64,000 bases of DNA from an uncultured Acidobacteriota bacterium. GTDB taxonomy: Bacteria; Acidobacteriota; Blastocatellia; RBC074. A program made the translations under genes and the position numbers. The notes beneath the pieces are model-generated. The model was not told the DNA's origin. It made no database searches and saw nothing but the letters and a program-made list of their open reading frames with translations. The stretch is taken from positions 1,536,001 to 1,600,000 of the forward strand of contig CAWCKY010000006.1 in the NCBI GenBank assembly GCA_963796275.1, written 5' to 3'. Positions within the stretch are counted from its first letter, which is position 1; every line of letters starts with the position of its first letter. Below are positions 6,222 to 64,000 of the stretch, one piece after another.

Positions 6222-7360
<1,139 letters not shown>

Positions 7361-10090: not shown

Positions 10091-10093
10091 GAT

Positions 10094-10127: not shown

Positions 10128-10138
10128 ATTAGTTCAAA

Positions 10139-13570: not shown

Positions 13571-13578
13571 ACTTGTGG

Positions 13579-14916: not shown

Positions 14917-14948
14917 CTCTACTCCGCGGTAAAGGTAATAAATTCTGA

Positions 14949-14970
14949 ACAGGTCAGAAACCTGCCCTAC
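14949..14970 (-). repeat. GTAG-type REP element (GTAGGGCAGGTTTCTGACCTGT)
   Basis: GTAG tetranucleotide followed by a short imperfect palindrome, intergenic. Confidence 0.55.
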
Positions 14971-14991
14971 ATATGAGTCCCGGTCGCATTT

Positions 14992-17823: not shown

Positions 17824-18101
17824 GGAGTAGACTCCGGAGTAGAGTTAATCGTTAGAATTTGAGTGCTTTGTGATGAATGAGAGAATCAAATTTCACTCGG
17901 TCTCCAGAGTGAAAGACGTTATAGGCAAACAGCGGTTACAACTTTTATCGCTGTCCGCCGGCTAATCTAGCCGATTCGGAACAATTTTCCAAATCTCTGC
18001 TCAGGCCGGATGATGAGATTATGTTTTAAGAAACGCAATAGGTGCGCGACCGTTCGGGTTATTCACAAATCCGTTAGGATCAGTAAATCTCTTAATCAAA
18101 T

Positions 18102-46442: not shown

Positions 46443-46907
46443 TTGGATCGCAGAGTTAATACGGCAATCCAATTTCTGTCCGATGCCATAACTGATGCTG
46501 TTATTGGTAATTTACCAGCCGGATCAGGTCACGATGAATGTGAGATAAAAGATAGATTGTCGCTGGATAAGCTGGCACGATCTGTGAATCTATCCCGGTC
46601 GCGGTTGCGAGCCCTGTTCAAATCTGGAACTGGAATGACTCCGGCGCAATACATAAAGCGCCTCAAAATAGAGAAAGCGAAGGAACTGGCGGAAAAAAGC
46701 AATATGACCATGGGGCAGATTTTAGCGAGTTTAGGAGTCCGTGACGAAAGCCACTTTCGGCGTGACTTCAAGAAAGCCATAGGTATTACTCTCAAAGAGT
46801 GCAGAGACCTCCATTACCAGCAGCCCAAAGAACCGCTTAGTCAAAGATTCCAGTTTTTATCAAGTGTACAGTCAAATCGGCCCGCAAATAGTCAAAACGG
46901 CCAGTGA
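46443..46907 (+). CDS. Stand-alone AraC-family HTH transcriptional regulator
   Basis: AAGGAGG RBS before TTG; LARSVNLSRSRLRALFKSGTGMTP...ESHFRRDFKKAIG double HTH with no sensor domain. Confidence 0.88.
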   Translation: MDRRVNTAIQFLSDAITDAVIGNLPAGSGHDECEIKDRLSLDKLARSVNLSRSRLRALFKSGTGMTPAQYIKRLKIEKAKELAEKSNMTMGQILASLGVRDESHFRRDFKKAIGITLKECRDLHYQQPKEPLSQRFQFLSSVQSNRPANSQNGQ

Positions 46908-47036: not shown

Positions 47037-49553
47037 GTGAAAAGAAATCTTCTGTTTTTATGCATGTTTGCCATGTGGTGTTTCGCCGTCTTGGGTTCGG
47101 GGAAAATTTTCACTAACAGCAGCGCGCAACAAGCCGACATTGAACTTTCGCTGGCTCCTTTGTCGATTCCCGACAATACGATCGGAATCCGTGTGCGAGG
47201 GGCGAGTAAGAACGGCAAGCGTCTGGTCTTCGAATCGGAGAACAATTTTAACGGCGGCAATCCCGATCGAAACCCCGAGATTTTTGTTTTTGATGTCGAT
47301 TCACAAAGTATAATTCAGATAACCAACTCCCAGAATGGGACAACCCCAATAGTTTTTGTCAAAAACCTTACGCCATCGATCAGCGGTGATGGAACCAAGA
47401 TCGTCTTCTCTTCCAATGCGCCTTTGGGCGATATGCTTGACACTGATCACAATTATGAAATGTATTTGGCCAATCTGCCGCCCGGCGCGACGACGGCGAC
47501 GATTAGTCGCCTGACCAAGACCGATCCGGACTTTTTTTGTGGCAACGTGGGTCCAAGCGTCAATGATGACGGCAGTATGATCGTTTTCGTATCGAGATGT
47601 AAGTCCTTCAATGAGACCAATGTTGCAGGGTCATTCACTCCCGATAATCCTGAGGGTAACCCTGAGATTATGGCGCTTCGGCTGGATCCTGGGCAAACGC
47701 GATATCGATATATTCAGGTGACGGGTACGCAAAATTATAATCAGTGCGGGGCTACGTGTTCCAGCCATACTCCGAGAGTCAGCGGCAATGGGATGGTGGT
47801 GGCGTTTCTCTCTTACGGGGATTTTGAGGGCAGAAACGGCGATGCGAACGGGGATTTTGAAAATGAAGAGATTTTCCTGAGCAGGTATGATCTTGGGAGT
47901 AGTAGATTCGCTAACATCATACAGGTCACCGATACCATTGAAAACAACGGTGTGGGGGGAATCGTTCCGATCTTCGATGTAATGACGGGAAAATTCCGAG
48001 TAGATAATAATAGGGCGAGGGGAAACCTGTTTCAGTGGATTATGAATCCGCTGAGCAATGATGGGAGGTGGCTCGTGATGGAGTCGGCGGGAAACTATGA
48101 TGGGATCAATCACAACAAGGCGCGGAACGTCTGGCTTTTCGATACAGTCAACCGCTCTTTTATTAGGCTTACCAATCAGATGGCCTCTCCTGTGCCGACC
48201 CAGGATGAACTGCGGCAACTCGACTATTTCTTCTTTCCCAGCATCAATGCGGCGGGAACATTCATCACTTTCAGCTCGTCGCTCAATCTCACATCGCAGA
48301 ACCCCGATGGCAGCAAAGAGGTTTTCAGGTACGAGATTAACCATGGGAGTCTCCGGCAGCTTACGTTCACCCAGCCTTCGTCCTTCTACGACGATGAGCG
48401 TGACAACTACACATCATCATTTCTCTCTGCCAATGGCGATATCGTGTCATTCAATTATCTGACGCAATCGCTGCAGCCCAACGCAGAGAACGTGATTGGC
48501 CTTTTCCAGATGATCATCCGCCCGGTCACGAGGAGCTCTCCGGGGGCCCGTATCGTTAATGGCGCGAGCTTCGATCCGGCACAGGTCGCGCGGGGCTCGC
48601 TGAGCACAGTCCAGGGCAATGAGCTGGCCAATTCGACTCCATCGGTCCCTGCCAGTCCGCCGTTTATCGTGGATGGCGTATCGGTCTCAGTGGGAGGGAT
48701 CGCGGCGCGGATTACCTATGTCTCGCCGGGACGTGTCAATTTCGTCGTCCCGAATGAAATTGCGACTGGTGATGCGGTTGCTTTCTCAGTCAACAACAAC
48801 GGAGTGCAGTCGGCCGGGACGATCAAGATCGTCGATGCCGCGCCTGGCATCTATAGCGTCGACGGGAGCGGGACAGGAATGCCGACTGCCACCTGTTTAA
48901 GCAAATTCCAGGGCTTTCATGACATTTATTACGACCCTCCGTGCGTAGCGAGTGGGGCCAATCTGGACAGTATTCTATTCTTCTTTGGGACAGGGTGGCG
49001 CAATGCGCTGGGAACCCAGGTCAAGCTCAACGGTATGACACTGACGCCGGTCTACAGCGGGGCTGCAGGCGGGGGAGATCGGAGAGATCAGATCAACCTG
49101 GTAGTGCCTTCCAACCTTGCCGGGTTGACCGATGCCGATATCTCGGTGGTGGCATCAGGGATCAATCTTGAGAGTAATAAATTGAAGGTCTCATTCCAGG
49201 AAATCTCGACGGCCCTTCTCCTCTTGGATAGCAGCAGATGTTTAACTAAGAGGCCCGGGATGCCTGATGAGTACTCATATCCACCGTGTACGGTGAGCAG
49301 CGACACAACAACCGGGATTCTGGTCCTTTATGGCACCGTGTTTAGCAATGCGCCAAGTCTGCAGGTCAAGTTTGAAGAAGTGACATTGAGTCCGGTATAC
49401 AGCGGACCGTCGGGGAATAATCCAGCGATAGATCAGATGAACATCCCGCTGCCACCGAGTCTTGCCGGCAGGACGGGCCATATCTCAGTGATAATTCCCG
49501 GCACCGGCGTCGAGAGCAATAAGGTGAGCATCTCATTCCAGCCGCTTCCGTGA
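47037..49553 (+). CDS. Secreted TolB/PD40-like beta-propeller protein with a C-terminal TIGR03437-type domain, copy 1
   Basis: Signal peptide; repeated PSISGDG..IVFSS / EIF blades; IVNGASF..VARGSL..YVSPGRVNFVVP..APGIY..GTG..DQIN C-terminal module. Confidence 0.8.
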   Translation: MKRNLLFLCMFAMWCFAVLGSGKIFTNSSAQQADIELSLAPLSIPDNTIGIRVRGASKNGKRLVFESENNFNGGNPDRNPEIFVFDVDSQSIIQITNSQNGTTPIVFVKNLTPSISGDGTKIVFSSNAPLGDMLDTDHNYEMYLANLPPGATTATISRLTKTDPDFFCGNVGPSVNDDGSMIVFVSRCKSFNETNVAGSFTPDNPEGNPEIMALRLDPGQTRYRYIQVTGTQNYNQCGATCSSHTPRVSGNGMVVAFLSYGDFEGRNGDANGDFENEEIFLSRYDLGSSRFANIIQVTDTIENNGVGGIVPIFDVMTGKFRVDNNRARGNLFQWIMNPLSNDGRWLVMESAGNYDGINHNKARNVWLFDTVNRSFIRLTNQMASPVPTQDELRQLDYFFFPSINAAGTFITFSSSLNLTSQNPDGSKEVFRYEINHGSLRQLTFTQPSSFYDDERDNYTSSFLSANGDIVSFNYLTQSLQPNAENVIGLFQMIIRPVTRSSPGARIVNGASFDPAQVARGSLSTVQGNELANSTPSVPASPPFIVDGVSVSVGGIAARITYVSPGRVNFVVPNEIATGDAVAFSVNNNGVQSAGTIKIVDAAPGIYSVDGSGTGMPTATCLSKFQGFHDIYYDPPCVASGANLDSILFFFGTGWRNALGTQVKLNGMTLTPVYSGAAGGGDRRDQINLVVPSNLAGLTDADISVVASGINLESNKLKVSFQEISTALLLLDSSRCLTKRPGMPDEYSYPPCTVSSDTTTGILVLYGTVFSNAPSLQVKFEEVTLSPVYSGPSGNNPAIDQMNIPLPPSLAGRTGHISVIIPGTGVESNKVSISFQPLP

Positions 49554-49555
49554 GA

Positions 49556-49745
49556 TGGCCATCTGAGATTTGAGATTTAATATTCGTCCTTAATACAAAT
49601 TTCAAATTTCAAAATTTCAAAATCTCTGTGGCCGAGCCTGATTACTGATCACAGCAATATCGTGGTTGGGATTGTTAATAGTCGATTTCGATTATAGATG
49701 ACCGTCCCAGTTTTGTCTCCAGTCGGTCATCAGGAGGTTGAATCT
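49556..49745 (+). promoter_or_regulatory. Conserved structured intergenic spacer (heptamer hairpin plus stem-loops abutting the Rhs RBS), copy 1
   Basis: Near-identical to 60216-60389; GATGACCG...CGGTCATC stem ends immediately before AGGAGG. Confidence 0.5.
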
Positions 49746-52700
49746 ATGTCTCGCCTGCTTGCGAAGTCCTCTCTCTTCTTGGCTCATTCCATTCACTCAG
49801 CTCTTTCCGCGTGTGGAACTCTGCGTGCCGCATTCCGGCAGACAGGAGGCTGTCTGTCGTCACTCTTGCGCGCGCTCATGTTACGACGCGAGCCCGAGAG
49901 ACGGCGATTCGCCCCTTCCGCCATCCATCGTTTCGTCTGCGCCGCGATGGTGATAGTGATGCCTGCCCAGATGGTACTAGCTTCGCCTCAGATTACTCAC
50001 GCCCTGGCGGAGGGCGTCCGGGTGAGATCGATCAATTCGTGGCAGAGGGCGGAGCACTGGTGGGGCGCGAGCGGGTGGGGGGCGAGCTCGGCGCTCTTCG
50101 TGCGAGAGAACCTTCCCTTCCTGGGCTCCGCCAAGCCGCAGAGGAAGGGAGGGGATGGGAGAGGGGCGCCGGCGGGAGAGCGGATGCCGCAGCCGAGACC
50201 GCAGGAGACGCAGGCAGAGCGCCAAGCGCGTGTGGCGCGTGTGGAGGTGATACCTGCAGAGGCCGCCGTCAGACCCGATCAGGAGGTGGAGTTCATCGTC
50301 ATCGGATATGATAGCGATGGTGCGCCGGTCAGCAGCTTGCCGTTTGAGCTGAGCGGAGAGGATGAGAAGACCGGCGAGAGTGTGGCGGTGGGGGGGAAGG
50401 GGAAGTTTGCCGCCTCCCGAGAGGGAGATTACCGGGTGAAGGTCAATGCGTTGGGCCATCGGGCCGAAGCCAGGGTGAAGGTGAATACTGCCCCGGGGGC
50501 GCTGAGTGACAGACCGGTGGTTCCCTATACCTTTTCATCGCGCGACCTGCCACAGGCACCGCGATCCAGTTCGTCGGTTACGCCCGGGAACCGGCGCCCC
50601 GGCAAGCAGAAGGGAAATATCGTAGGAGGATTGGCTTCGAGGTACGCGGCGAGCGGGACGAAGCTGATGGCGGCGATCGCGCAGAGCCAGGGAGACCTCT
50701 ATGGGTGGAACGACGGCAACGCGACGACGGCGGATGATCCCGGATCGGGGCGAGGCATGCCGACCGGAGAGCCGCCCGATGGTGGAGCGGGCAGCGCCAA
50801 TTTCCAGTTCACCGCGCCGGTGCTGGCAGTGGAGGGGCGAGGTCTTGACCTGGATCTGGGGATGTACTACAACGCGCGCGTCTGGCATAAGGCGGGCCCC
50901 GTGATCACCTACAACATCGATAACGAACAAGTGCCCGGCTGGCGGTTCGGCTTGAGTAAGATAGTGGGAATGGGCGAGCAGAGCGGATTTATGATCATGG
51001 AAGCCAACGGGACGCGGCGGTCATACACGTGTACGATCACGCCGCAGCAGCCGATCGGATTCGCAGACTGCAAGACCACCGACGGTTCATTCATCGACTA
51101 CCACGTGGAGGCGTCTTACCCTGGAGGAAAGCCGATCTCGGCGCGGATGGCGCTGTCCAACGGGACGGTGATCACGATGGACACGGCCAACCCATATGGG
51201 TCTGGTCCGAATGCGGTCTACCCGCAGAATATTCAGGATAGTCACGGGAATCGGATAAATATCGCGTATGCGCCCCACTCATTCCCCTATGGAGGGGAGC
51301 CGAAGATTCGCTACATCATCGACACGATGGGGAAGGTGATCGAGTTCTATTATAACGCCGATCACCTGCCGGTAGCGGTGACGGCGCCCGGGTTGGACGG
51401 GACGAGGCGGACGATGGTGCGGATCACCTACGATTGGATAAATAAAAGCAGCCTGGGAACATTCACAAACATGGTTCCGCTGATCCGTAATACTTCATAT
51501 CCACGTGTGAAGGCGATCTATTATCCGGAAAGCAAGACGGGGTGGTGGTTCGGGGATTCCTATTCGGTCTATGGGATGCTGGCGAAGGTAGTCAATCAGC
51601 GGGGAATGAGCTTTAGTGGGGCGTCGCTGCCGGCCGATTCGTTACAACCGGCAGATATGGGAACGATCACGCCTGGAGTGATGACGCACCAGTTGGTCTA
51701 TGACTATCCGATGGTATCGAGCGGATTGAGGGATGAGCCGAGATATCAGACAATGACCGAGACGTGGGCGTATATGGATGAGGCGCCGGCGGTGACGCGA
51801 TATCTGGTGCAGGAGGATGCGACGCCGCGGCGAACGGAGATGACGCGGCCTGACGGGGTGAAGATGGTGATGCTGTCGCATAACGCGCCGGGAGATTTCA
51901 AGGATGGTCGTGTATATCAGAACGAGACCTTCAGCCCGCAGGGAGCGCTGCTGAGCCGGTCATACATCGAATGGGAGGAGGGGAACTGTCCGCAGCCGGG
52001 GCAGGCGCCTGGACCATACGAGTATTGTGCGCCGCGAGTGAGCCGGATAGAGACGACTGATGAACTGGGCCAGACGACGGGCAAAGAATACAGCTATGGG
52101 TCGCACTTCAACCAGGTGGGGGAGACGCGCCTCTATGGGTATGGGTATAAATTTGATGGGACGAAGACGTTGCTGCGGAAGACGAAGACTGAGTATATGA
52201 ATGATGGGAAGTATATCGATTATCGGCAACGAGCGTATGGGAGCCACATCTACAATCTGGTGAAGGCGAGCGAGGTATATGGGGCAGATGGGACGACGCG
52301 GTTGGCGCGCACTGAGTATTCCTATGATGAAAACACAGGGACAGGGGGATTGAAAGATGCGCCTGAGATAACGACAGATGGGTATAACAGTTACTTCAAC
52401 CCGCATAGTACCCCGGGAAACATCGATACGTGGAATCGGGGAGATGTCACGAGTGTCAAACGATACGCGAAGGCGGCGACGCTGGAGGGTGCGATCACCG
52501 GGACGATGGATTACGACACCACGGGGAACGTGGTGAAGGTGGTGCCGCAATGCTGCGGTCAGACGATGATCGAATACACGTTAAACACGCAATACTCGTG
52601 GCCGGAATCGGTGACCAGCGGATCGGTGACTGAGACGACGAAACAGAATAAGACATTCGCGACCTATGATTTCGGCACTGGGCTGTTGAAGAATGAGACC

Positions 52701-55700
52701 GATGCGAATGGACGGATATCGCAATATGAATACATCCCCGGAACGACACGCCCATTAAAAGAGATAGGGCCGACCGGGGCCTACACCTATCACGAGTACG
52801 ATGATGCGGGGCTGAAGGTGATGGACTTCGTCTACAGGGCTGGGGAGAGCGAGGGGGATTTCTCTTCGCGCAGCGATAAATACCTGAATGGGCAGGGCCA
52901 GGTGCGCTTGGCGATCGGGTATGGGAAGGATGACGTGCAGGATCAGGTGGCGAGCCGATATGACCAGATGGGAAGAATGAAGCAGCAGAGCCGGCCGTAC
53001 CGCGATGGGGAGACGCCGCAATGGAGCACGGTGACCTATGATGACCTGGATCGGCCGATGAAGACGACCTCGCCTGACTTGAGCGAAATGACGAGAGCGT
53101 ACAACGAGGAGGTGGAGCCTGAAGGGGCATTGGGGCAGGCGGGGCAGACGGTGCGAGTGAGGGACGCGTGGGGGCGAGAGCACTGGGCGCGCAGAGACGC
53201 GCTGAGGAGGCTGGTGGAGGTCATCGAACCGAATCCGGATGGGGACGGAAGTGTGGGGACAGGCGGGCTGATCACGACCTACAGTTACGATGAGCTGGAT
53301 CGGTTGATTGAGGTGAGGCAGGGAAACCAGAGGCGGAGATTCAGGTATAACTCGTTTGGACAGGTAACGCATCAGAAATTGGCGGAACAGGCTGGGACGC
53401 TCAATGACCAGGGGGAGTATGTTGAGATGGGGGGGCAGTGGAGCAGTGTCTTCAAATACGACCCACGGACGACCCTGATGACAGAGAGCGTGGATGCGCG
53501 TGGGGTGAAGACGGTCTTTGAATACAACGACGATCCGCTCTACCGGGTGCAGACGCTGAGATATGACAAGAGCGGAGTGCCTGCGAGTCTGGCGGGGACG
53601 ATACTGGATGCGGCGAGTGTGGATTACTTCTATATGACGACAGGAGACGTGACGCGGCTGCGGAGTATGGAAGTGGCTTCAGGGATGGGCAACGAGACGA
53701 TGAGCTACGACAGCGAGGGAAGGCCGAGCGAGGTGGTGCGGACCTTTGCGGGACGTGGGGACTATCCGCTGGTGATGAACTATGAGTGGGATGAGCTGGG
53801 TCGGCTGAAAGCGATGACCTATCCGAATCAGTACGGAGCTGGAGATATCCGCAAGAAGGTGGAATACACCTATGACAGCGCGAGCCGGGTCGAGAGTATG
53901 AAGTTCGGGGGAGTGTCCTTCGCCGCCAACCCGGTCTACAACGCAGCGGACCAGACGACGTCGTTGAAGGTTGGTAGCCAGACCGTCGAGAACTATGGCT
54001 ATGACCTGCAGACGGGACTTCTGACGACACAGCAAGTCGTGCGCGGCGGGACGGATAAATTGGTAGATCTGAAGTACAACTACACGCTGACCAATGATGC
54101 GAACAACAGCGGAGCGAAGACGGGGCAACTGACGGGGATCACGGATCTGAAGAACCCGGCGCGCAACCGGATACATAAATACGACAATCTAGGAAGATTG
54201 AAGATGGTCCAGGGAGGAGCCAATGCGTTCACGAGCCCGGACTGGAGTCAGAGCTACAGATATGATCGGTTTGGGAACAAGTTGGGAGTGACGAAGAATG
54301 GTAACTCGCCGCAGATACCGCTGGATGGGATGGGGAGTGTGAGCGTCAACCCACTAAACAACCGGATCACGAGCGCGGGGTTTGCGTATAACGATACGGG
54401 AGATCAGACGAGTGCGGTGATCGACGAAAGCGGGACGCAGCAGCAGAGTCAGTATGATGCGGCAGGGAGGCTGGTGAAGGTGCTGGACGGGAGCGGGACG
54501 ACGGTGCTGGCGAGCTATAGCTACGGAGCGGGCAACCAGCGGCTGATGAGCGTCGAGGGCGGAGTGACGAGGTATTTCGCGTGGGGAGGAGAAGGGATAT
54601 TGAGCGAGTACGAGGCAGTGGGAGCGAGCGGGTTGAAGTGGAAGACGAGTTACGTCTATCTGAGCGGGCAGCTCATGGCGACGACGAGTGGGAGCGATGG
54701 GAGTGAGACGCGATTCCATCACCCGAATCGATTGGGTGGCACGAGGCTGGTGACCGATGCGGCGAATGGGGAGATAGTGGCGGAGCAGTTGAGCTTGCCA
54801 TACGGGACGATGCAGCCGTATGGGGCGTATGGCGGAGACAACTCGTATCAGCACCCGACCAAGAGCAATCCGTCGAGGAAGCGGTTCACGAGCTATGATC
54901 TGGACGATGCGACTGGAATGCATTATGCGGTGAATCGGTATTACAGCAGCCGGCAGGGGCGATTCACGCAGGTCGATCCGATAGTGATGGGATCGGTGGA
55001 GTTGGCGAATCCGCAGAGTTTGAACCTGTATGCGTATGTGGAGGGCGATCCGGTAAACAGTAGAGATCCGTTGGGGCTTGATGGTCTGTCCTTTTCTTTC
55101 GGAGGACCCTATCCGACAGGTGGAGGAGGTGGTGGCTGGTGGAATAGCTTGTTATCGTTTGGGCCGTTTACCTTCAGTTTCGGGTTTGGCAGTGGATTTG
55201 GGGGCCCATTCATTCCATGGTTCCCACTTCCCATGAACAGGATGCTGTTGCTGCAGCAACAACTCGGGATACAGCCAACATACGTGGCGAAGCCACAGGA
55301 GCCCAAACCACTACTGCCGCTGCTACAGGAGCCACCTACGGCTCAACCTTTTGTGAGCAAGAGCCCCTCGATCTCTGAAAGCGATTTCTATTACAACGAG
55401 GAGTATGGTGCGACTTTAAGAATTGGACAAGCATCAGAATCCAAAGCAAGCGCTGATGGTTTTTTTGCCAATGTTAGGAAGTGGCTTCCTGGAAGTTTTG
55501 GCTTGAGTATTGATGCCGCAGCTAATGCTGGTATGGGCATGGGATATAATGCTGTTGGTTCGGCAGGGATTGGCACATTTTCTGGGCGCCCATTTTTCGG
55601 ATTGCCAAATGGAGCATTTGCTAGCGGTGGCGTTTCTGGATATGGAACTAATCACCCATTCAGTTATCCACAGGAAGTGCCGGACAAGATTGGGGGACTT

Positions 55701-55976
55701 CAAGTTCCCAATATATCGGTTTTTGGTTATGCTGGGGTCGGTATTGGTGGGTGGCTCAGCAATGCTCGAACCCCATATGACCTGACAAAAACAGTTAACA
55801 CAATCTCTATAAATTTCGGAATACCATGGGTCGCAGACTTGCAGGGCGGATTTTCGCTGTCTTATGGTAATGGAATATATCAACTTACTATTGACCCTCC
55901 AACCGGTATTCCTTTCACGGGGATCGGAGGTGGTATGGGCATTATCAAGCAAACGACTGCCACTAAGGGATGGTGA
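49746..55976 (+). CDS. Rhs/YD-repeat polymorphic toxin (~2076 aa) with a signal peptide, Ig-like and DUF6531-like N-terminal domains and a Gly-rich C-terminal domain
   Basis: AGGAGG RBS before ATG 49746; many YD repeats; Rhs core RYYSSRQGRFTQVDP...NLYAYVEGDPVNSRDPLG; composition shifts after DPLG (~55076). Confidence 0.92.
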   Translation: MSRLLAKSSLFLAHSIHSALSACGTLRAAFRQTGGCLSSLLRALMLRREPERRRFAPSAIHRFVCAAMVIVMPAQMVLASPQITHALAEGVRVRSINSWQRAEHWWGASGWGASSALFVRENLPFLGSAKPQRKGGDGRGAPAGERMPQPRPQETQAERQARVARVEVIPAEAAVRPDQEVEFIVIGYDSDGAPVSSLPFELSGEDEKTGESVAVGGKGKFAASREGDYRVKVNALGHRAEARVKVNTAPGALSDRPVVPYTFSSRDLPQAPRSSSSVTPGNRRPGKQKGNIVGGLASRYAASGTKLMAAIAQSQGDLYGWNDGNATTADDPGSGRGMPTGEPPDGGAGSANFQFTAPVLAVEGRGLDLDLGMYYNARVWHKAGPVITYNIDNEQVPGWRFGLSKIVGMGEQSGFMIMEANGTRRSYTCTITPQQPIGFADCKTTDGSFIDYHVEASYPGGKPISARMALSNGTVITMDTANPYGSGPNAVYPQNIQDSHGNRINIAYAPHSFPYGGEPKIRYIIDTMGKVIEFYYNADHLPVAVTAPGLDGTRRTMVRITYDWINKSSLGTFTNMVPLIRNTSYPRVKAIYYPESKTGWWFGDSYSVYGMLAKVVNQRGMSFSGASLPADSLQPADMGTITPGVMTHQLVYDYPMVSSGLRDEPRYQTMTETWAYMDEAPAVTRYLVQEDATPRRTEMTRPDGVKMVMLSHNAPGDFKDGRVYQNETFSPQGALLSRSYIEWEEGNCPQPGQAPGPYEYCAPRVSRIETTDELGQTTGKEYSYGSHFNQVGETRLYGYGYKFDGTKTLLRKTKTEYMNDGKYIDYRQRAYGSHIYNLVKASEVYGADGTTRLARTEYSYDENTGTGGLKDAPEITTDGYNSYFNPHSTPGNIDTWNRGDVTSVKRYAKAATLEGAITGTMDYDTTGNVVKVVPQCCGQTMIEYTLNTQYSWPESVTSGSVTETTKQNKTFATYDFGTGLLKNETDANGRISQYEYIPGTTRPLKEIGPTGAYTYHEYDDAGLKVMDFVYRAGESEGDFSSRSDKYLNGQGQVRLAIGYGKDDVQDQVASRYDQMGRMKQQSRPYRDGETPQWSTVTYDDLDRPMKTTSPDLSEMTRAYNEEVEPEGALGQAGQTVRVRDAWGREHWARRDALRRLVEVIEPNPDGDGSVGTGGLITTYSYDELDRLIEVRQGNQRRRFRYNSFGQVTHQKLAEQAGTLNDQGEYVEMGGQWSSVFKYDPRTTLMTESVDARGVKTVFEYNDDPLYRVQTLRYDKSGVPASLAGTILDAASVDYFYMTTGDVTRLRSMEVASGMGNETMSYDSEGRPSEVVRTFAGRGDYPLVMNYEWDELGRLKAMTYPNQYGAGDIRKKVEYTYDSASRVESMKFGGVSFAANPVYNAADQTTSLKVGSQTVENYGYDLQTGLLTTQQVVRGGTDKLVDLKYNYTLTNDANNSGAKTGQLTGITDLKNPARNRIHKYDNLGRLKMVQGGANAFTSPDWSQSYRYDRFGNKLGVTKNGNSPQIPLDGMGSVSVNPLNNRITSAGFAYNDTGDQTSAVIDESGTQQQSQYDAAGRLVKVLDGSGTTVLASYSYGAGNQRLMSVEGGVTRYFAWGGEGILSEYEAVGASGLKWKTSYVYLSGQLMATTSGSDGSETRFHHPNRLGGTRLVTDAANGEIVAEQLSLPYGTMQPYGAYGGDNSYQHPTKSNPSRKRFTSYDLDDATGMHYAVNRYYSSRQGRFTQVDPIVMGSVELANPQSLNLYAYVEGDPVNSRDPLGLDGLSFSFGGPYPTGGGGGGWWNSLLSFGPFTFSFGFGSGFGGPFIPWFPLPMNRMLLLQQQLGIQPTYVAKPQEPKPLLPLLQEPPTAQPFVSKSPSISESDFYYNEEYGATLRIGQASESKASADGFFANVRKWLPGSFGLSIDAAANAGMGMGYNAVGSAGIGTFSGRPFFGLPNGAFASGGVSGYGTNHPFSYPQEVPDKIGGLQVPNISVFGYAGVGIGGWLSNARTPYDLTKTVNTISINFGIPWVADLQGGFSLSYGNGIYQLTIDPPTGIPFTGIGGGMGIIKQTTATKGW

Positions 55977-56279
55977 TTTGTAATGTTGTCGGATGAGATG
56001 TTGATATGAATATCTGGCAATTCCCTGATTAATTTCGCATAGATTTCAGGGCCTCAATCTGAGTTGCTCTATCATTCAAGGTCGTTAGCAGGCTGGTGCA
56101 GAAGATGAGATAATCGAGTAGAACGCACTATAGATGATATGAAAACATGGTGCTGGCGCCCAGTTCGGCTAGTAACACTGATTTGAACGTTTCCTTGATA
56201 GACTAGAGACTATCTGGCCCTTCAAGGAAGCGTCTTGACCTTCATATATCTTCTTCGTTATTTTAAGATTGCAGAGTAA

Positions 56280-56672
56280 ATGGATTGTATATTTCAAATT
56301 GTTACTTTTGTCATTCAGCTTATGGGCTTTGCCCTATTCATTTTCGTATTTATTTGGCTCTTTGCTCGCCCACTTCTCTATAGTTATCAAATATCCCACA
56401 GTGGTATAGACATTATGTTTATGTACGTATATAAAATGTATTATATTAATTTCGATGACATCGTAAATATCCGAGTTGAGAACTATCTATCCGCATTAAG
56501 GAATTTCAATAGCATTAGCAATATCCGCAAAACGAAAAACCTGTTAGATACATTTTACCCGAAGCGAGTGATGGTAATCACCACAAGCGGAAAGATACAG
56601 AATTGGATATTATCCACGACTCCTCTTGAGTACATTAGCAATAATGTAAAGATAAGTATTGAGTACAAATGA
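56280..56672 (+). CDS. AT-rich small membrane protein, candidate immunity protein
   Basis: N-terminal TM helix, markedly AT-rich, downstream of the Rhs toxin, overlaps the next gene (ATGA). Confidence 0.6.
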   Translation: MDCIFQIVTFVIQLMGFALFIFVFIWLFARPLLYSYQISHSGIDIMFMYVYKMYYINFDDIVNIRVENYLSALRNFNSISNIRKTKNLLDTFYPKRVMVITTSGKIQNWILSTTPLEYISNNVKISIEYK

Positions 56673-57133
56673 TCATCAGAGTTGAGGCTAAAATCAATAA
56701 GTTAATACATAGACATAAAAACCGAGTCAATATTTCACCTATAATGTTGCTCGTTTTAGCGGTTGTATCCTGCTCTTCTTTGCAAAGCCCTGAGTTAGCC
56801 AACATTGCGATTCAGGATTTCCATAAAAAATATAATAACGAACAGTACAAAGAAATTTACAATCAATCGGATGAAAGCTTCAAACAAACTGTGCCAGAGG
56901 GAGAAGCCATAGTATTTTTTACCAAGCTTGGTGAAAAGCTGGGAAAAGTTGGAAACACCAAGCCGATTAAGCAGGGTATAAGCGTAACATCAATGGGAAC
57001 TATGGTAACCATAAGTAATGATACGGAGTTCTCAAGAGGAAAGGCGCAAGAAAGATTTGTATTTATCATTAAAGATAGTGTTATTAAGCTGATGGATTAT
57101 AAAGTAGATTCGCCCTTATTGCTCTCGCGATAA
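56669..57133 (+). CDS. DUF4019/DUF3887-like lipoprotein, candidate immunity protein
   Basis: Lipobox LAVVSC; IQDFHKKYNNEQYKEIY...KLG...TEFSRGKAQERFVF pattern; AT-rich. Confidence 0.65.
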   Translation: MIIRVEAKINKLIHRHKNRVNISPIMLLVLAVVSCSSLQSPELANIAIQDFHKKYNNEQYKEIYNQSDESFKQTVPEGEAIVFFTKLGEKLGKVGNTKPIKQGISVTSMGTMVTISNDTEFSRGKAQERFVFIIKDSVIKLMDYKVDSPLLLSR

Positions 57134-57276
57134 TGCGGAACCAATCGATTCCAAATCCCATTCTCACCGCCAATTCGTTCGGAGATCCGCGACAAGCCAT
57201 GTTCCCAATACATATTTTCAGCTCATGCGCTTAACCTGACGGTAAGGTCTTCGTTTTTTCTTCAGCCACCAGACCA

Positions 57277-57463
57277 CAATTTGAAGAGATGATGCTGAAT
57301 CCGAGGCTACAGCGGGGCGTTTGGGAACCACCCTATGATAGATCAGATGAACATCCCCCTGCCTGGGATATTTGCCGGTAGGACGTGTCAGGCCTCAGTG
57401 AGAATTCCCGGCACCAGTGTTCGAGAGCGACAGGATGCCGATCTCATTGCTGCCGCTTCCGTG
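57277..57463 (+). pseudogene. Decayed 3' end of a third propeller/TIGR03437 gene
   Basis: GATAGATCAGATGAACATCCC...ATTCCCGGCACC...GCCGCTTCCGTGAGA matches the ends of 47037..49553 and 57691..60213, with indels. Confidence 0.8.
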
Positions 57464-57521
57464 AGACAGCCACAGAGGCGCATCCGAAAATCTTAAATTT
57501 CCGGATTTTATCAAAGCGGGC

Positions 57522-57604
57522 AGTCAAATCGGCCCGCGAATAGTCAAAACGGCCAGTGAATAGTCATTTAGGCTCTGTTTATCATTTTGAGATATCAATA
57601 CCCT
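57522..57604 (+). promoter_or_regulatory. Three 20-bp direct repeats plus a -10-like TACCCT: putative AraC-activated promoter, copy 2
   Basis: AGTCA at 57522, 57542 and 57562; one mismatch to copy 1 over the 60-bp repeat block; same spacing to the -10. Confidence 0.7.
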
Positions 57605-57690
57605 GAAGCTGTCTGATCAGATCGATTGAAATCTGGTTGTTGGCCGGGTTTATTGGATTCATCTTTCTTCCAAAAGGAGGGTTTCATAAC

Positions 57691-60213
57691 GTGAAAAGTT
57701 ATATTCTGTTTTTATGCGGGTTTGTCATGTGCTGTTTCACCGTCTTGGGTTCGGAAAATATTCTCACTACCACCAGCGCGCAACAAGCCGACATTGAACT
57801 TTCGCTGGCTCTGTTGCCGATTCCCGGCAATACGGTCGGAATTCGTGTGCGCGGGGCGAGTAGGAACGGCAAGCGTCTGGTCTTCGAATCGGAGAACAAT
57901 TTTAACGGCGGCAATCCCGACCGAAACCCCGAGATTTTTGTCTTTGATATCGATTCCCAAAGTATCATTCAGATAACTAACTCCCAGAATAGGGCGCACC
58001 CCTTCGTCTATGTCAAAAACCTTACGCCATCGATCAGCGGTGATGGATCCAAGATCGTCTTCTCTTCCAATGCGCCTTTGGGCGATATGCCGAACACTAA
58101 TTACAATAGTGAAATCTACCTGGCCAATCTGCCGCCCGGCGCGACGACGGCGACGATCCGTCGCCTGACCAAGACCACCGAACCGAACTGTAGCATCGGG
58201 AATCCAAGCGTCAATGATGACGGCAGTATGATCGTTTTCGGATCGGGTTGTAAGGTCTTCAATGAGACCAATGTTGCAGGGTCATTTACTGCCGATATTC
58301 CTGCGTATAGTGCCGAAATTATGGCGCTTCGGCTGGATCCTGGGCAAACGCGATATCGATACATTCAGGTGACGGGTTCGCAAAATTATAACGACTGCGA
58401 GGGTACCTGTTCCAGCCATACTCCGAGAGTCAGTGGCAATGGGATGGTGGTGGCGTTTCTCTCTTACGGGAATTTTGAGGGCAGAAACGTCGATGCGAAC
58501 GGGGATTTTCAGAGTGGTAATGAAGAGATTTTCCTAAGCAGGTATGATCTTGGGAGTAGTAGATTCACCAACATCATACAGGTCACCGATACCCTTGAAA
58601 ACAACGGTGTGGGGGGAATCGTTCCGATCTTCGATGTAATGACGGGAAAATTCCGAGTAGATAATAATAGGGCGAGGGCAAACCTGTTTCCGCCGTATAT
58701 AAATCCGCTGAGCAATGATGGGAGGTGGCTCGTGATGGAGTCGGCGGGAAACTATGATGGGATCAATCACAACAAGGCGCGGAACGTCTGGCTTTTCGAT
58801 ACAGTCAACCGCTCTTTTATTAGGCTTACCAATCAGATGGCCTCTCCTATGCCGACCCAGGATGAGCTGGGGCGGCTGGACCATACTTTCACACCCAGCA
58901 TCGATGCGGCGGGAACATTCATAACTTTCTGCTCGTCGCTCAATCTCACATCGCAGAACCCCGATGGCAGCAAAGAGGTTTTCAGGTACGAGATTAACAA
59001 CGGGACTCTCCGGCAGCTCACTTTCACCCAGCCTTCGTCTTTCTTCGACGATCAGCGTTACAACTTCACATCATCGTTTCTAACTGAAAATGGCGATATG
59101 GTGTCATTCAATTATCTCACGCAATCGCTGCAGCCCAACGCCCAGAACGTTATGGGCCTTTTCCAGATGATTATCCGCCCGATAACCAGCCCCAACAATG
59201 TGGGGACGGCTATCGGCAATGCGGCAAGCTTCAACACGAACCAGATCGCGCGCGGGTCACTCGCTATCTCCCTTGGCACTCAGATCGCGGGGGCCGTGTC
59301 CCCGGCCTCGCTGCCATTCGTGCTCAATGGGGTATCAGTCAGGGTAGGCCAGGTGGCGGCGCGGATCGCCTCGATAGTAGATGGAAGAGTCACATTCTTG
59401 ATGCCAAATGAAATTGCGACTGGAGTGATCGATTACTCGATCAACGATAACGGAGTGCAACATACGGGTAATGTAGTAATCGTGGATGCAGCGCCTGGAA
59501 TCTATACCATCGACGGGGGCGGGACAGGAGATTCGACCGCCTATTGTTACAGCATATACCGGAACGGGACAGATGGTTACTCGGATCTTCCGTGCGCGGC
59601 GAGTAACAACGACGCGACCAATTTTCTGGTCATCGTGGGGACGGGCTGGCGTAATTCTCCTGGGGGTACCCAGGTCAAGATCAACGGGACAACATTGAAT
59701 TCGAGCTATAGCGGCGCGACCGGGCTTCTCACTCAGGATCAGATCAACGTCATTCTCCCGTCGTATCTCGCCGGATTGCAGAATGCCGAACTCTCGGTGG
59801 TGATTCCCGGCAGCGGGCTTGAGAGCAACAGGGTGCCGATCTCATTCCAGGGTACGCCGACATCCCCAACCATTTTGGAGGGCAATGATGGTGTCGATTG
59901 TGTGAGCTCAAGGCTTGGGCAGCCCGACACCTACTCGGAGCCGCCGTGTGTGGTGAGCAATGGCTCAACAATGAGGCTCCTGGTCCTCTATGGATTTGGG
60001 TGGCGCAATGCGCCGAATCTGCAGGTCAAGTTTGAGGAATTGATACTGAATCCGAGCTACAGCGGCCCGTTGGGGAATAATCCAGCGATAGATCAGATGA
60101 ACATCATACTACCATCGAGTCTTGCCGGCAGGACGGGCCATATCTCAGTGATAATTCCCGGCACCGGCGTCGAGAGCAATAAGGTGAGCATCTCATTCCA
60201 GCCGCTTCCGTGA
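57691..60213 (+). CDS. Secreted beta-propeller/TIGR03437 protein, copy 2
   Basis: AAGGAGG RBS before GTG 57691; colinear paralog of 47037..49553. Confidence 0.8.
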   Translation: MKSYILFLCGFVMCCFTVLGSENILTTTSAQQADIELSLALLPIPGNTVGIRVRGASRNGKRLVFESENNFNGGNPDRNPEIFVFDIDSQSIIQITNSQNRAHPFVYVKNLTPSISGDGSKIVFSSNAPLGDMPNTNYNSEIYLANLPPGATTATIRRLTKTTEPNCSIGNPSVNDDGSMIVFGSGCKVFNETNVAGSFTADIPAYSAEIMALRLDPGQTRYRYIQVTGSQNYNDCEGTCSSHTPRVSGNGMVVAFLSYGNFEGRNVDANGDFQSGNEEIFLSRYDLGSSRFTNIIQVTDTLENNGVGGIVPIFDVMTGKFRVDNNRARANLFPPYINPLSNDGRWLVMESAGNYDGINHNKARNVWLFDTVNRSFIRLTNQMASPMPTQDELGRLDHTFTPSIDAAGTFITFCSSLNLTSQNPDGSKEVFRYEINNGTLRQLTFTQPSSFFDDQRYNFTSSFLTENGDMVSFNYLTQSLQPNAQNVMGLFQMIIRPITSPNNVGTAIGNAASFNTNQIARGSLAISLGTQIAGAVSPASLPFVLNGVSVRVGQVAARIASIVDGRVTFLMPNEIATGVIDYSINDNGVQHTGNVVIVDAAPGIYTIDGGGTGDSTAYCYSIYRNGTDGYSDLPCAASNNDATNFLVIVGTGWRNSPGGTQVKINGTTLNSSYSGATGLLTQDQINVILPSYLAGLQNAELSVVIPGSGLESNRVPISFQGTPTSPTILEGNDGVDCVSSRLGQPDTYSEPPCVVSNGSTMRLLVLYGFGWRNAPNLQVKFEELILNPSYSGPLGNNPAIDQMNIILPSSLAGRTGHISVIIPGTGVESNKVSISFQPLP

Positions 60214-60215
60214 GA

Positions 60216-60389
60216 CGGCCATCTGAGATTTGAGATTTAATATTCGTCCTTAATTCAAATTTCAAATCTCTGTGGCCGAGCCTGATTACTGATCACAGCA
60301 ATATCGTGGTTGGGATTGTTAATAGTCGATTTCGATTATAGATGACCGTCCCAGTTTTGTCTCCAGTCGGTCATCAGGAGGTTGAACCT
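60216..60389 (+). promoter_or_regulatory. Conserved structured intergenic spacer, copy 2
   Basis: Near-identical to 49556-49745 except for heptamer copy number. Confidence 0.5.
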
Positions 60390-63300: not shown

Positions 63301-64000
63301 AGAATACGAGTTCATCGACCTACGATTTCAACACGGGACTGGTGAAGACGGTGACCGACGCGAATGGGCGAACATCGCAGTACCAATACATTCCCGGAAC
63401 GACGCGGCCATTAAAGGAGATTGGGCCGACGGGGGCCTACACCTATCACGAGTACGATGATGCGGGGCTGAAGGTGATGGACTTCGCCTACAGGGCTGGG
63501 GAGAGCGAGGGGGATTTCTCTTCGCGCAGTGATAAATACCTGAATGGGCAGGGCGGAGTGCGGCTGGCGATCGCGTATGGGAAGGATGACGTGCAGGATC
63601 AGGTGGCGATCAAATATGACCAGATGAGGAGAGTGAAGCAGCAGAGCCGGCCGTACCGCAGTGGGGAGACGCCGCAATGGAGCACTGTAACCTATGATTA
63701 TCTGGATCGGCCGATGAAGACGACCTCGCCTGACTTGAGCGAAATGACGAGAGCGTACAACCAGGGGGAGGAGCCTGAGGGAGCATCAGGGGAAGCCGGG
63801 CAGACGGTGCGAGTGACGGATGCATGGGGGAGGGAGCGATGGGCGCTGAGTGATGCGCTGGGGAGGCTGGTGAAGGTGATCGAGCCGAAAGCGGATGGGG
63901 ACGGAAAGGTAAACACGGATGGGATGGTGACGACCTACAAGTACGATGACCTGGATCGCTTGATAGAGGTGAGGCAGGGAGAGCAGATACGGAGATTCAG
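60390..64000 (+). CDS. Second Rhs/YD-repeat protein, running off the window end
   Basis: AGGAGG RBS before ATG 60390 (MSRLLEKSSLFLAH...); colinear with 49746..~53345; absent from the ORF track, consistent with no stop before the window end. Confidence 0.9.
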   Translation, partial: MSRLLEKSSLFLAHFIHRALSACGTLRAAFRQTRCCLSSLLRALLFRREAERGRFAVSTIHRFVCAVMVMVMPAQMVVASPQISHSVAETVSLRTINGWQQVDHWWASSGWEERTERFVRENLPFLRTATPQRKGWDGRGAPAGERMPEPRPQESQAERHARVVRVEVIPDEVTVRPDQPVEFIVIGYDSNNAPVSSLSFELSGEDEKTGEQVNVAGKGKFAASREGEYRVKVNALGHQAEARVSVKAAPQALSDRPVVPYTYSSREVAPAPRSTSSVQPKSGRTGRQRGKIAGGWASRYAASGTKLMAAIAQSGDQYGWNDGNAGTADNPGSRRGTPAGEPPDGGAGNSNYQFTAPVLAVEGRGLDLDLGMYYNSRVWHKAGFVVTHDIDRDWPAPGWEFGFSKIVGMGEQSGYMIMEANGTRRPYTCTITPQQPIGFADCKTTDGSFIDYHVEANFPGGKPISARMVLSNGTVITMDSANPYGSGPNAVYPQNIQDSHGNRINIAYVPHSFPYGGEPKLRYVIDTMGKVIQFYYDANNLPVAVTAPGLDGTRRTVVRITYEWKNKSSLGSFANLVPLVRGNTFPVVKGIYYPESQTGWWFGDTDSYSAYGMIAKVVNQRGMGFSGAALPADSLQPADMGTITPGVMTHQLVYDYPMVSSGLRDEPRYQTMTETWAHMDEAPAVTRYLVQEDATPRRTEMTRPDGVKMVMLSHNAPGDFKDGRVYQNETYSPQGALLSRSYIEWEEGNCSQPGQAPGQYEYCAPRVSRIETTDELGRKTGKEFSYGSLFNQVEEARLYGYGYKFDGAKTLLRKTKTEYMNDGKYIDYQQRAYGSHIYNLVAASEVYAGDGTTRLSRVEYSYDENTGTEGLKNAPGITTDGYNDFFNPHTNPTSESTWSRGDVTAVKRYAKAATLEAGSAISETMNYDVTGNVVKVVPQCCGQTTINYTANTQYAWPESVTSGSASEETKQNTSSSTYDFNTGLVKTVTDANGRTSQYQYIPGTTRPLKEIGPTGAYTYHEYDDAGLKVMDFAYRAGESEGDFSSRSDKYLNGQGGVRLAIAYGKDDVQDQVAIKYDQMRRVKQQSRPYRSGETPQWSTVTYDYLDRPMKTTSPDLSEMTRAYNQGEEPEGASGEAGQTVRVTDAWGRERWALSDALGRLVKVIEPKADGDGKVNTDGMVTTYKYDDLDRLIEVRQGEQIRRF

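What the first reader, a model, noticed from the sequence alone, without database searches (positions are those of the whole stretch)
47160..59180. CDR-like hypervariable loops on an almost invariant beta-propeller scaffold
Seen: the two propeller paralogs share long near-identical DNA tracts interrupted by short replaced patches. Examples: GTTPIVF/RAHPFVY, LDTDHNYEM/PNTNYNSEI, DPDFFCGNVG/TEPNCSIGN, PDNPEGNP/ADIPAYSA, QCGA/DCEG, QWIM/PPYI (48033-48044 vs 58690-58701), RQLDYFFF/GRLDHTFT, YDDERDNY/FDDQRYNF. The patches recur at two equivalent positions per blade (before the PS[IV]x motif and before the EI[FYM] strand) and several are rich in aromatic residues. Inference: these loops map to one propeller face and form a diversifying binding surface that sets target or partner specificity for each cassette.
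Basis: partly seen in the sequence, partly recalled or inferred. Interest (0 to 1): 0.8.

Follow-up and report, generated by a model that had tools for sequence, protein, structure and literature searches.

The report
Gene-conversion mosaic in twin propeller genes
Two neighbouring copies of a secreted propeller-protein gene beside Rhs toxin genes have been largely homogenised by recombination, leaving short divergent islands mainly in surface loops; this is a known pattern for duplicated genes, not an antibody-like diversity system.

Summary
All 8 quoted patch pairs exist at the stated places, and differences in the propeller DNA are clustered far beyond chance (0 of 5000 shuffles).

The "CDR-like hypervariable loops" reading is not supported.
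- The two genes sit in two tandem ~10.65-kb cassettes. Each cassette is a secreted 7-blade PD40 propeller with a TIGR03437 Ig-like tail, then an Rhs toxin, then small ORFs.
- The cassettes are a recombination mosaic. Silent divergence is 0.16 in the propeller, 0.54 in the Ig-like module and 0.05 in the last 47 codons (p=8e-23).
- The trees disagree. The propellers of A and B are sisters (100/100). A's Ig-like module groups with metagenome proteins (100/99), and B lies outside that group.
- Silent changes pile up next to replaced codons.
- dN/dS is below 1 in the loops: 0.64 on the D-A/B-C face and 0.66 on the other face.
- The neighbouring Rhs genes show the same kind of patchiness.
- Other homolog pairs show little extra variation at these columns.
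- No reverse transcriptase lies nearby and no donor copies exist. Soil contigs carry the same alleles.

By count, 50 of 68 replaced residues do lie in loops of one face. Selection keeping cassette-specific surfaces apart is plausible but untested.

The parts
46443..46907 (+). AraC-type HTH regulator gene just upstream of cassette A
   Evidence: Pfam HTH_18 70.8 bits, HTH_AraC 62.6 bits
46862..46948 (+). Upstream non-coding repeat marking the start of the duplicated unit (copy B: 57514-57600, 91% identical)
   Evidence: the repeat finder family D11. The identity profile rises from 0.47 to 0.78 at about 46840
47037..49553 (+). Copy A: secreted protein of 838 aa (P0001). It has an N-terminal helix/signal region, a 7-blade PD40 propeller (residues ~35-496, nt ~47139-48524) and a TIGR03437 Ig-like module (residues ~506-838)
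   Evidence: Pfam PD40 43.3 bits against a cut-off of 20.9. TIGR03437 115.9 bits against 29.05. AlphaFold model with mean pLDDT 90.8 and pTM 0.81, with 7 x 4 strands. Foldseek best TM to the 7-blade oligogalacturonate lyase, 0.61-0.63, and 0.44-0.48 to TolB
47337..47357 (+). Island, D-A loop 1 (residues 101-107). B copy: 57991-58011
47436..47468 (+). Island, B-C loop 2 and start of strand C (residues 134-144). B copy: 58090-58122. A departs here from a family-conserved motif (N135 is 100% conserved)
47520..47552 (+). Island with an indel, D-A loop 2 (residues 162-172). B copy: 58174-58203. Holds the Cys shared by A and B only
47589..47666 (+). Two islands in B-C loop 3 (residues 185-190 and 200-210). 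B copy: 58240-58317
47739..47756 (+). Island, D-A loop 3 (residues 235-240). B copy: 58390-58407. Contains a CxxxC motif unique to A and B. Model confidence is low here (pLDDT about 60)
48033..48044 (+). Sharpest island (residues 333-336, QWIM versus PPYI at 58690-58701). It has 6 base changes in 4 codons, lying between identical tracts of 84 nt (47938-48021) and 147 nt (48045-48191); one further difference lies at about 48022
48207..48236 (+). Island, D-A loop 5 (residues 391-400). B copy: 58864-58893
48381..48431 (+). Island, D-A loop 6 to strand A7 (residues 449-465). B copy: 59038-59088
48525..49410 (+). Unhomogenised Ig-like module of copy A (about residues 497-791). It is 53% identical to B but 80-83% identical to metagenome proteins P0007-P0009
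49698..55976 (+). Rhs A (2092 aa). It has a YD shell, the Rhs-associated core and a divergent C-terminal tip from about residue 1895
   Evidence: RHS_repeat 64.4 bits. TIGR03696 58 bits. Tip 23-27% identical to Rhs B
56280..57133 (+). Two small ORFs after Rhs A (130 and 154 aa), candidate immunity genes. They have no counterpart after Rhs B
   Evidence: ORFs; weak DUF3887 match; no blastp match below E=1 to the ORFs after Rhs B
57308..57420 (+). Relic of the 3' end of a propeller gene between the cassettes (77% identical to 49398-49510)
   Evidence: the repeat finder family D10; tblastn hit at 1593299-1593427 of C6
57691..60213 (+). Copy B: 840 aa (P0006; the frame is open from 57637). Same architecture as A
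   Evidence: AlphaFold model with mean pLDDT 90.4 and the same strand pattern
60342..64000 (+). Rhs B. It runs off the window and is 2040 aa in the genome, ending at window coordinate 66464

Best explanation
The region holds two tandem paralogous cassettes: a propeller-Ig protein gene, an Rhs toxin gene and small ORFs. The cassettes evolve in concert.

Shown: repeated recombination or gene conversion between the copies has overwritten most of the propeller-coding DNA, the last ~47 codons, the intergenic spacer and many tracts of the Rhs genes. Three things stayed different: the Ig-like module, the Rhs toxin tip, and about a dozen short islands in the propeller. The 'invariant scaffold' is therefore recently homogenised DNA. 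The 'hypervariable patches' are small segments that carry more divergence at silent as well as replacement sites. They sit mostly in the long D-A and B-C loops, the parts of a propeller that tolerate change and indels.

Inferred, not shown: the islands persist because each copy's loop surface, like its Ig-like module and its toxin tip, has a cassette-specific role, so conversions that erase them are selected against. This is the islands-of-divergence model of Teshima and Innan.

No mutagenic or programmed diversification mechanism is involved.
For: Heterogeneous silent divergence:
- Within one gene pair, pS is 0.156 in the propeller, 0.544 in the Ig-like module and 0.049 in the tail. Chi-square is 101.7, p=8e-23.

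Incongruent ancestry:
- In the propeller tree A and B are sisters (100/100). In the Ig-like module tree A groups with P0007-P0009 (100/99) and B lies outside (19 rows).
- Identities: the A propeller is 85.6% identical to B and 65-67% to P0007-9. The A Ig-like module is 53% identical to B and 80-83% to P0007-9.

Mosaic across the cassette:
- Eight perfectly identical tracts of 82-157 nt are spread over the unit, while its 150-nt window identity ranges from 0.57 to 0.99.

Silent changes track replaced codons:
- Among codons with the same amino acid, silent changes fall with distance from the nearest replaced codon: 14/89, 6/54, 6/84, 6/98, 2/76.
- Mean distance is 2.94 versus 5.26 codons expected; 0 of 5000 shuffles reached that.
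- A run of 101 codons has no silent change (p=0.0006).
- Transition:transversion is 63:76 in the propeller and 139:166 in the old Ig-like module.

Location of replaced residues:
- 50 of 68 lie in D-A/B-C loops (odds ratio 3.0 against the rest, p=1e-4).
- This holds within each tertile of family entropy.
- 120 of 144 family indel columns fall in these loops.

Hints of functional difference:
- Some islands change family-conserved residues in one copy only. There are 4 such columns in A and 5 in B, of 150 conserved columns.

Literature:
- Passages of PMC3728101 state that islands of divergence under ongoing conversion can signal selection maintaining paralog differences.
Against: The selective part is not demonstrated.
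- dN/dS in the loops is below 1: 0.64 on face 1 and 0.66 on face 2.
- The per-site excess of face 1 over face 2 is not significant (p=0.07).
- The Rhs pair shows the same kind of clustering: dense windows 20 versus 4.4 expected, and 37% of replaced codons with 2 or more base changes against 38% in the propeller. The pattern is therefore not special to the propeller loops.
- 3 of 14 islands contain indels that could block conversion without any selection.
- Silent divergence next to replaced codons (about 0.16) is lower than in the Ig-like module (0.38). Multi-hit replaced codons are also fewer, 38% versus 68%. The islands are therefore not simply as old as that module.
- Which copy keeps the family-like state differs from island to island, so no single donor direction explains them.
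- Model coordinates could not be read, so 'one face' rests on blade topology (recalled rule) applied to the DSSP strands of the model.
Confidence: 0.6

Rival explanations
1. Neutral mosaic. The islands are only places where conversion tracts happened to end, or where local divergence or indels block heteroduplex formation. Loops are over-represented because they tolerate change and are long. The differences have no cassette-specific function.
For: Loop dN/dS is equal on both faces (0.64 versus 0.66), and the face difference is not significant (p=0.07). The Rhs pair shows the same patchiness. 3 of 14 islands hold indels. Some islands are mostly silent, for example residues 84-92 with sd 3 and nd 1, and residues 483-487. 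PMC3728101 passages name this neutral alternative.
Against: Very sharp indel-free islands exist. The 12-nt QWIM/PPYI island lies between perfect tracts of 84 and 147 nt. That needs tract ends to fall repeatedly at the same few bases. One-copy departures occur at family-invariant residues (N135D in A; N170I and N404D in B). The excess of replaced residues in face-1 loops persists within entropy tertiles.
Confidence: 0.27
2. After a recent duplication, point mutations in the loops were driven by positive diversifying selection on a constrained scaffold, in a CDR-like way.
For: Replaced codons are strongly clustered. In the stretch from about residue 293 to 390 there are roughly 8-9 replacement changes and no silent change. 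The QWIM island has 6 base changes and none is silent.
Against: dN/dS is 0.64 in structure-defined loops and 0.45 in ascertained patches. Silent changes co-cluster with replaced codons. The trees are incongruent and pS differs ten-fold within the gene, so this is not a simple recent duplicate. Other homolog pairs show little extra variability at these columns. Soil contigs carry the same loop alleles with 0 differences: 48003-48479, 58664-58814 and 58753-59056 (thin cover).
Confidence: 0.08
3. Programmed diversification, either by a diversity-generating retroelement or by micro-conversion from silent donor cassettes.
For: Only the short multi-base replaced patches themselves.
Against: The reverse-transcriptase matches in the genome lie on C1, on C4 and at C6:2.92 Mb, more than 1.3 Mb from the window. 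No second copy of any of 11 patches per paralog, each with 12-nt flanks, was found elsewhere in the 9.46-Mb assembly; only chance hits with E of 0.05 or more appeared. Adenine is involved in 69 of 139 differences, so there is no bias. The patches span 1.4 kb, not one C-terminal variable repeat.
Confidence: 0.02
4. Assembly or polishing chimera between two repeat copies created the mosaic.
For: The genome is a 7-contig assembly with 5.2% estimated contamination. Tandem 10.6-kb repeats are error-prone.
Against: Independent short-read contigs from soil runs match with 0 differences across islands plus flanks. X1 covers 48003-48479 (two A islands and part of a third). X2, from another study, covers 58753-59056. 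X3 covers 58664-58814. Both reading frames are intact and both proteins fold with pLDDT about 90. X1 may be the source sample, so only X2 and X3 count as independent.
Confidence: 0.03

Closest known systems
Concerted evolution of duplicated genes with islands of divergence (Teshima-Innan model; RHCE/RHD and opsin examples as cited in PMC3728101, passages read)
   Same: Homogenised background, short divergent islands, elevated linked silent divergence that decays with distance, and incongruent ancestry along the gene.
   Different: This case is bacterial, in tandem 10.6-kb cassettes at an Rhs locus. No functional difference between the copies is known. No population data were available to run the formal test.
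Rhs/YD polymorphic toxin loci (Zhang et al. 2012, PMC3482391; passages and tables read)
   Same: A conserved Rhs shell with the Rhs-associated core, a swapped C-terminal tip (23-27% identity after about residue 1895), different small downstream ORFs, and relics of recombination.
   Different: No PAAR, VgrG or TPS secretion domain was seen by Pfam. Each Rhs gene is preceded by a separate secreted propeller-Ig protein gene. Such a neighbour was found in only 2 of 30 relatives' loci.
TolB and other PD40 beta-propellers
   Same: PD40 repeat signature and Foldseek matches to TolB structures (TM 0.44-0.48 on the target).
   Different: Seven blades rather than TolB's six (the TolB blade number is recalled). 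No TolB N-terminal domain. The TolB equivalog score is far below cut-off (25.7 versus 343 bits). The protein carries Ig-like TIGR03437 modules.
Propeller plus YD-shell assemblies in cis: the TcB/TcdB propeller and teneurin-like proteins (PMC3482391 table; PMC13018210 passages)
   Same: A beta-propeller is functionally coupled to an Rhs/YD shell in those systems. Here a propeller gene sits 145 nt (A) and 129 nt (B) upstream of an Rhs gene on the same strand.
   Different: Here the propeller is a separate PD40-type protein, not an NHL or integrin-like domain of the toxin. No fused form was seen among the 4 longest of the 150 best representatives. Binding was not tested.
Antibody CDRs and diversity-generating retroelement targets
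   Same: Short variable patches on a conserved beta scaffold.
   Different: Only two fixed alleles exist. There is no mutagenic machinery, template or donor, dN/dS is below 1, and the same alleles occur in soil contigs.

Membership tests
PD40 (WD40-like) beta-propeller, PF07676 | Repeat signature above Pfam's gathering score | tested here: met
   P0001 43.3 bits and P0002 38.7 bits against a cut-off of 20.9
PD40 (WD40-like) beta-propeller, PF07676 | Closed propeller of four-stranded blades | tested here: met
   The AlphaFold models (pLDDT 90.8 and 90.4) show 7 x 4 strands, with an N-terminal strand (35-42) available to close blade 7. Foldseek hits are propellers
TolB (TIGR02800 equivalog) | Full-length match above NCBIfam's cut-off | tested here: not met
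   25.7 bits against 343.15; only a partial match to blades
TIGR03437 Soli_cterm domain proteins | C-terminal domain above the cut-off | tested here: met
   115.9 bits (A) and 87.6 bits (B) against 29.05, two stretches each
Rhs/YD polymorphic toxin | YD/RHS repeats and the Rhs-associated core | tested here: met
   RHS_repeat 64.4 and 51.4 bits. TIGR03696 58 bits against 32.5 in Rhs A
Rhs/YD polymorphic toxin | Variable C-terminal toxin tip with a cognate immunity gene | tested here: inconclusive
   The tips are 23-27% identical after about residue 1895. The downstream small ORFs differ. There is no Pfam match for the tip of Rhs A. Toxicity and immunity were not tested
Diversity-generating retroelement target | Nearby reverse transcriptase and a template repeat | tested here: not met
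   RT matches lie only on C1, on C4 and at C6:2.92 Mb. No extra copy of the patches exists
Diversity-generating retroelement target | Adenine-specific substitutions | tested here: not met
   69 of 139 differing sites involve A in either copy
Gene conversion with selected islands (Teshima-Innan) | Heterogeneous silent divergence and incongruent trees along the gene | tested here: met
Gene conversion with selected islands (Teshima-Innan) | Linked silent divergence peaks at replaced sites and decays with distance | tested here: met
   0.157, 0.111, 0.071, 0.061, 0.026
Gene conversion with selected islands (Teshima-Innan) | Islands are fixed differences with a functional effect | not testable with these tools
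   No population sample and no assay were available. Soil contigs show only the same alleles at thin cover
Teneurin-like protein (FN-plug + NHL propeller + YD shell in one chain) | NHL propeller and FN-plug in the Rhs protein | tested here: not met
   Pfam finds only RHS_repeat and a weak sub-threshold CarboxypepD_reg match in Rhs A

The most novel reading that the evidence does not exclude
The propeller-Ig protein is a cassette-specific recognition or delivery partner of the Sec-type Rhs toxin encoded just downstream. This would be a two-protein counterpart of the propeller-plus-YD-shell assemblies of Tc toxins and teneurin-like proteins. Its loop face and Ig-like module are held apart from the sister cassette by selection against gene conversion, so that each toxin keeps its own target or partner.
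Probability: 0.15. Interest if true: 0.6.

Novelty: new member of a known kind. Interest (0 to 1): 0.28.

Why it matters
The case shows how a striking pattern of 'invariant scaffold plus variable loops' between tandem paralogs can arise from concerted evolution rather than from a diversity-generating mechanism. It also gives simple checks that separate the two: silent divergence by region, trees by region, and the neighbouring gene pair as a control.

If the islands prove to be selected, they would mark the working surface of an uncharacterised protein family. That family is restricted to one taxonomic family: it was found in 53 of 55 genomes of that family and in 0 of 145 genomes from other families of the class. 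Selected islands would also hint that these proteins can act together with Rhs toxins in Acidobacteriota-like soil bacteria.

Tried and rejected
Mechanisms rejected:
- DGR.
- Silent donor cassettes. blastn-short of 22 patch segments against the genome gave only chance hits.
- Aromatic enrichment, p=0.34.
- A charge shift: acidic residues in A only number 10 and in B only 4, p=0.18.
- Fused propeller-Rhs proteins. The 'longer' search of the search for homologous proteins did not finish. The full HMMER search gave 3549 hits at E of 0.001 or less, and the 4 longest of the best 150 have no RHS repeats.

Searches for DNA of the closest relatives (P0007-P0017):
- The genome-contig scan with the single protein gave 1 irrelevant short hit.
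- The metagenome scan with alignment A3 gave only 38-41% relatives.
- No codon model could therefore be run across relatives.

Searches that found nothing or did not run:
- Solved structures by sequence: one weak hit (Ika8, E=0.0011), and none with the profile.
- Expression: no RNA holder was listed.
- The sigma-70 and terminator scan was at background level.
- Earlier findings of this scan: three look-ups returned nothing.
- A full-text search for 'TIGR03437' found 0 papers.

Model coordinates are not exposed to scripts. No geometric mapping, solvent exposure or electrostatics could be computed.
Full report
WHAT IS THERE

The finding spans two tandem cassettes about 10.65 kb apart.
- Cassette A holds a gene for an 838-aa protein (47037-49553), an Rhs gene of 2092 aa (49698-55976) and two small ORFs.
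- Cassette B holds the paralog (open frame from 57637; probable GTG start at 57691, 840 aa as in database entry P0006) and an Rhs gene that leaves the window (2040 aa in the genome).
- An AraC-type regulator gene lies upstream of A.
- A relic of a propeller-gene 3' end lies between the cassettes at 57308-57420.
- The rest of the window is ordinary chromosome, with EF-G, RelA/SpoT, SurA and transporters.

THE PROTEINS

Both proteins carry PD40 repeats (43.3 and 38.7 bits, cut-off 20.9) and the TIGR03437 'Soli_cterm' domain (115.9 and 87.6 bits, cut-off 29.05). They are not TolB (25.7 against 343 bits).

AlphaFold models were built on a 90-row alignment: the two paralogs plus 88 of the 120 listed homologs. 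I left out P0082, P0084, P0090, P0094, P0096, P0099 and P0101-P0124 for low coverage or identity. The models are confident (pLDDT 90.8 and 90.4, pTM 0.81 and 0.80). They show seven four-stranded blades followed by Ig-like sandwiches. Foldseek returns propellers: the best target TM is 0.61-0.63 to a seven-blade oligogalacturonate lyase, and 0.44-0.48 to TolB.

The family is taxonomically narrow. It was found in 53 of 55 other genomes of the same taxonomic family and in 0 of 145 genomes from other families of the class, mostly as a single copy. Source names of homologs point to Acidobacteriota/Blastocatellia.

An Rhs gene follows the propeller gene in only 2 of 30 relatives' loci examined (G053 and G161). 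Three of the 30 were cut short by contig ends.

All eight quoted pairs are present. Differences in the propeller (139 of 1422 nt) are clustered beyond all 5000 shuffles.

WHY THE SCAFFOLD IS NEARLY IDENTICAL

Silent divergence differs ten-fold along one gene pair: 0.156 in the propeller, 0.544 in the Ig-like module and 0.049 in the last 47 codons (chi-square 101.7, p=8e-23).

Ancestry differs too. The A and B propellers are 85.6% identical to each other and 65-67% identical to the nearest metagenome proteins P0007-P0009. A's Ig-like module is 80-83% identical to those proteins and only 53% identical to B. Maximum-likelihood trees of 19 rows agree: (A,B) is supported 100/100 for the propeller, and A with P0007-9 is supported 100/99 for the Ig-like module, with B outside.

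Across the unit, identity in 150-nt windows runs from 0.57 to 0.99. There are eight perfect tracts of 82-157 nt. This is a recombination or gene-conversion mosaic. The 'invariant scaffold' is recently homogenised DNA.

WHAT THE PATCHES ARE

Among codons whose amino acid is unchanged, the share with a silent change falls with distance from the nearest replaced codon: 0.157, 0.111, 0.071, 0.061, 0.026. Replacement and silent changes therefore travel together, as expected for small retained or replaced DNA segments. Selected point mutations would not give this pattern.

The transition:transversion ratio is the same as in the old Ig-like module (63:76 against 139:166).

In patches defined by any change, pS is 0.47 and pN is 0.27 (dN/dS 0.45). 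That is close to the Ig-like module (0.54, 0.30, dN/dS 0.40). This comparison is inflated by how the patches were chosen. By the unbiased measures the islands look younger than that module: silent change next to replaced codons is 0.16 against 0.38, and multi-hit replaced codons are 38% against 68%.

WHERE THE PATCHES LIE

Loop classes were set from the model's DSSP strands. In a four-stranded meander blade, the D-A and B-C loops share one face; I recalled this topology rule and applied it.
- 50 of 68 replaced residues lie in D-A and B-C loops (239 residues).
- 7 lie in A-B and C-D loops (65 residues).
- 11 lie in strands (158 residues).

Face 1 against the rest gives an odds ratio of 3.0, p=1e-4. 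Per site, face 1 against face 2 gives 21% against 11%, p=0.07. dN/dS is 0.64 against 0.66, and 0.14 in strands. An earlier motif-based classification gave the same picture, and it held within tertiles of family entropy. These loops also take 120 of the 144 indel columns of the family.

The concentration on one face is therefore real by count. It is largely explained by the fact that this face carries the long, tolerant loops.

CONTROLS AGAINST A SPECIAL MECHANISM

- The neighbouring Rhs pair shows the same kind of patchiness, somewhat weaker. Dense windows are 20 against 4.4 expected (propeller: 15 against 1.1). Multi-hit codons are 37%. Silent change near replaced codons is 0.22 against 0.09 far away.
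- In 55 pairs of other homologs, the columns where A differs from B are only modestly more variable (mean 55.3 against 68.8%). In three close pairs the gap is small or absent: 89.9 against 90.9, 85.3 against 88.0 and 80.9 against 84.9.
- No reverse transcriptase lies within 1.3 Mb, no other copy of any patch exists in the genome, and there is no adenine bias.
- Soil-metagenome contigs match both copies across islands with 0 differences. Cover is thin, and X1 may be the source sample.

WHAT REMAINS SUGGESTIVE

- Some islands are razor-sharp and free of indels. QWIM/PPYI has 6 changes in 12 nt between perfect tracts of 84 and 147 nt.
- Some islands alter family-invariant residues in one copy only.
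- Both copies share a remodelled blade 3-4 surface: four cysteines seen in 0 of 88 homologs, and 22 of 150 conserved columns changed in both.
- Everything that stays different between the cassettes is a plausible specificity part: the loops, the Ig-like module, the toxin tip (23-27% identity after about residue 1895) and the small ORFs.

This fits the published model in which islands that resist conversion mark selected paralog differences. The same source names the neutral alternative, that divergence or indels stop conversion (PMC3728101, passages). I could not separate these two.

VERDICT

This is a well-documented example of concerted evolution at an Rhs locus, not a CDR-like diversification system. 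The functional idea, a cassette-specific binding surface that may be a partner of the Rhs toxin, remains a hypothesis. The complex predictor was not available, and no fused forms were found.

Noticed in passing
window 57308-57420: A relic of the 3' end of a propeller-Ig gene (77% identical to 49398-49510) lies between the cassettes, just before the upstream repeat of cassette B. It is a trace of an earlier rearrangement or a lost cassette.
   Followed up: partly
G000:C3:1208374-1210876 (loci L003/L004): A third, distant paralog (38-49% identical) is split into two ORFs of 456 and 494 aa in different frames. This is a frameshift, a pseudogene or an assembly error. No Rhs match was found within about 15 kb downstream.
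   Followed up: partly
window 47538-47540, 47598-47600, 47745-47747, 47757-47759 (A residues C168, C188, C237, C241) and the equivalent codons in B: Both paralogs share four cysteines that none of 88 homologs has. One replaces an arginine that is invariant in all 88. They may form disulfides in the blade 3-4 loops. The model is of low confidence there (pLDDT about 60).
   Followed up: partly
window 48552-49410 versus proteins P0007-P0009: A's Ig-like module is much closer to metagenome proteins (80-83%) than its propeller is (65-67%). This suggests module exchange between lineages, or that the shared A/B propeller came from the B lineage.
   Followed up: partly
window 55381-57636: The Rhs A tip (GC 0.465) and the inter-cassette stretch with the small ORFs (GC 0.405) are well below the genome's GC of 0.543. 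The Rhs core has GC 0.585. This is typical of swapped toxin and immunity modules.
   Followed up: no
window 49698-49990 and 60342-60630: Both Rhs ORFs begin with about 97 residues that include a hydrophobic stretch near residues 78-96, following an arginine-rich segment. Read by eye, this suggests an internal start with a Sec signal peptide. No PAAR or VgrG domain was found by Pfam.
   Followed up: no
L045 (G053) 4577-17878 and L049 (G161) 4261-17871: In two other genera the propeller-Ig gene is followed, after a 1.9-kb gap or a 308-aa ORF, by an Rhs gene (1902 and 1754 aa) and a further Rhs piece (612 and 913 aa).
   Followed up: partly
G000:C1:1098002-1098655 and C6:2919772-2920425: Two reverse-transcriptase matches with identical scores sit in 651-aa open frames, far from the window. 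They may be copies of a mobile retroelement.
   Followed up: no
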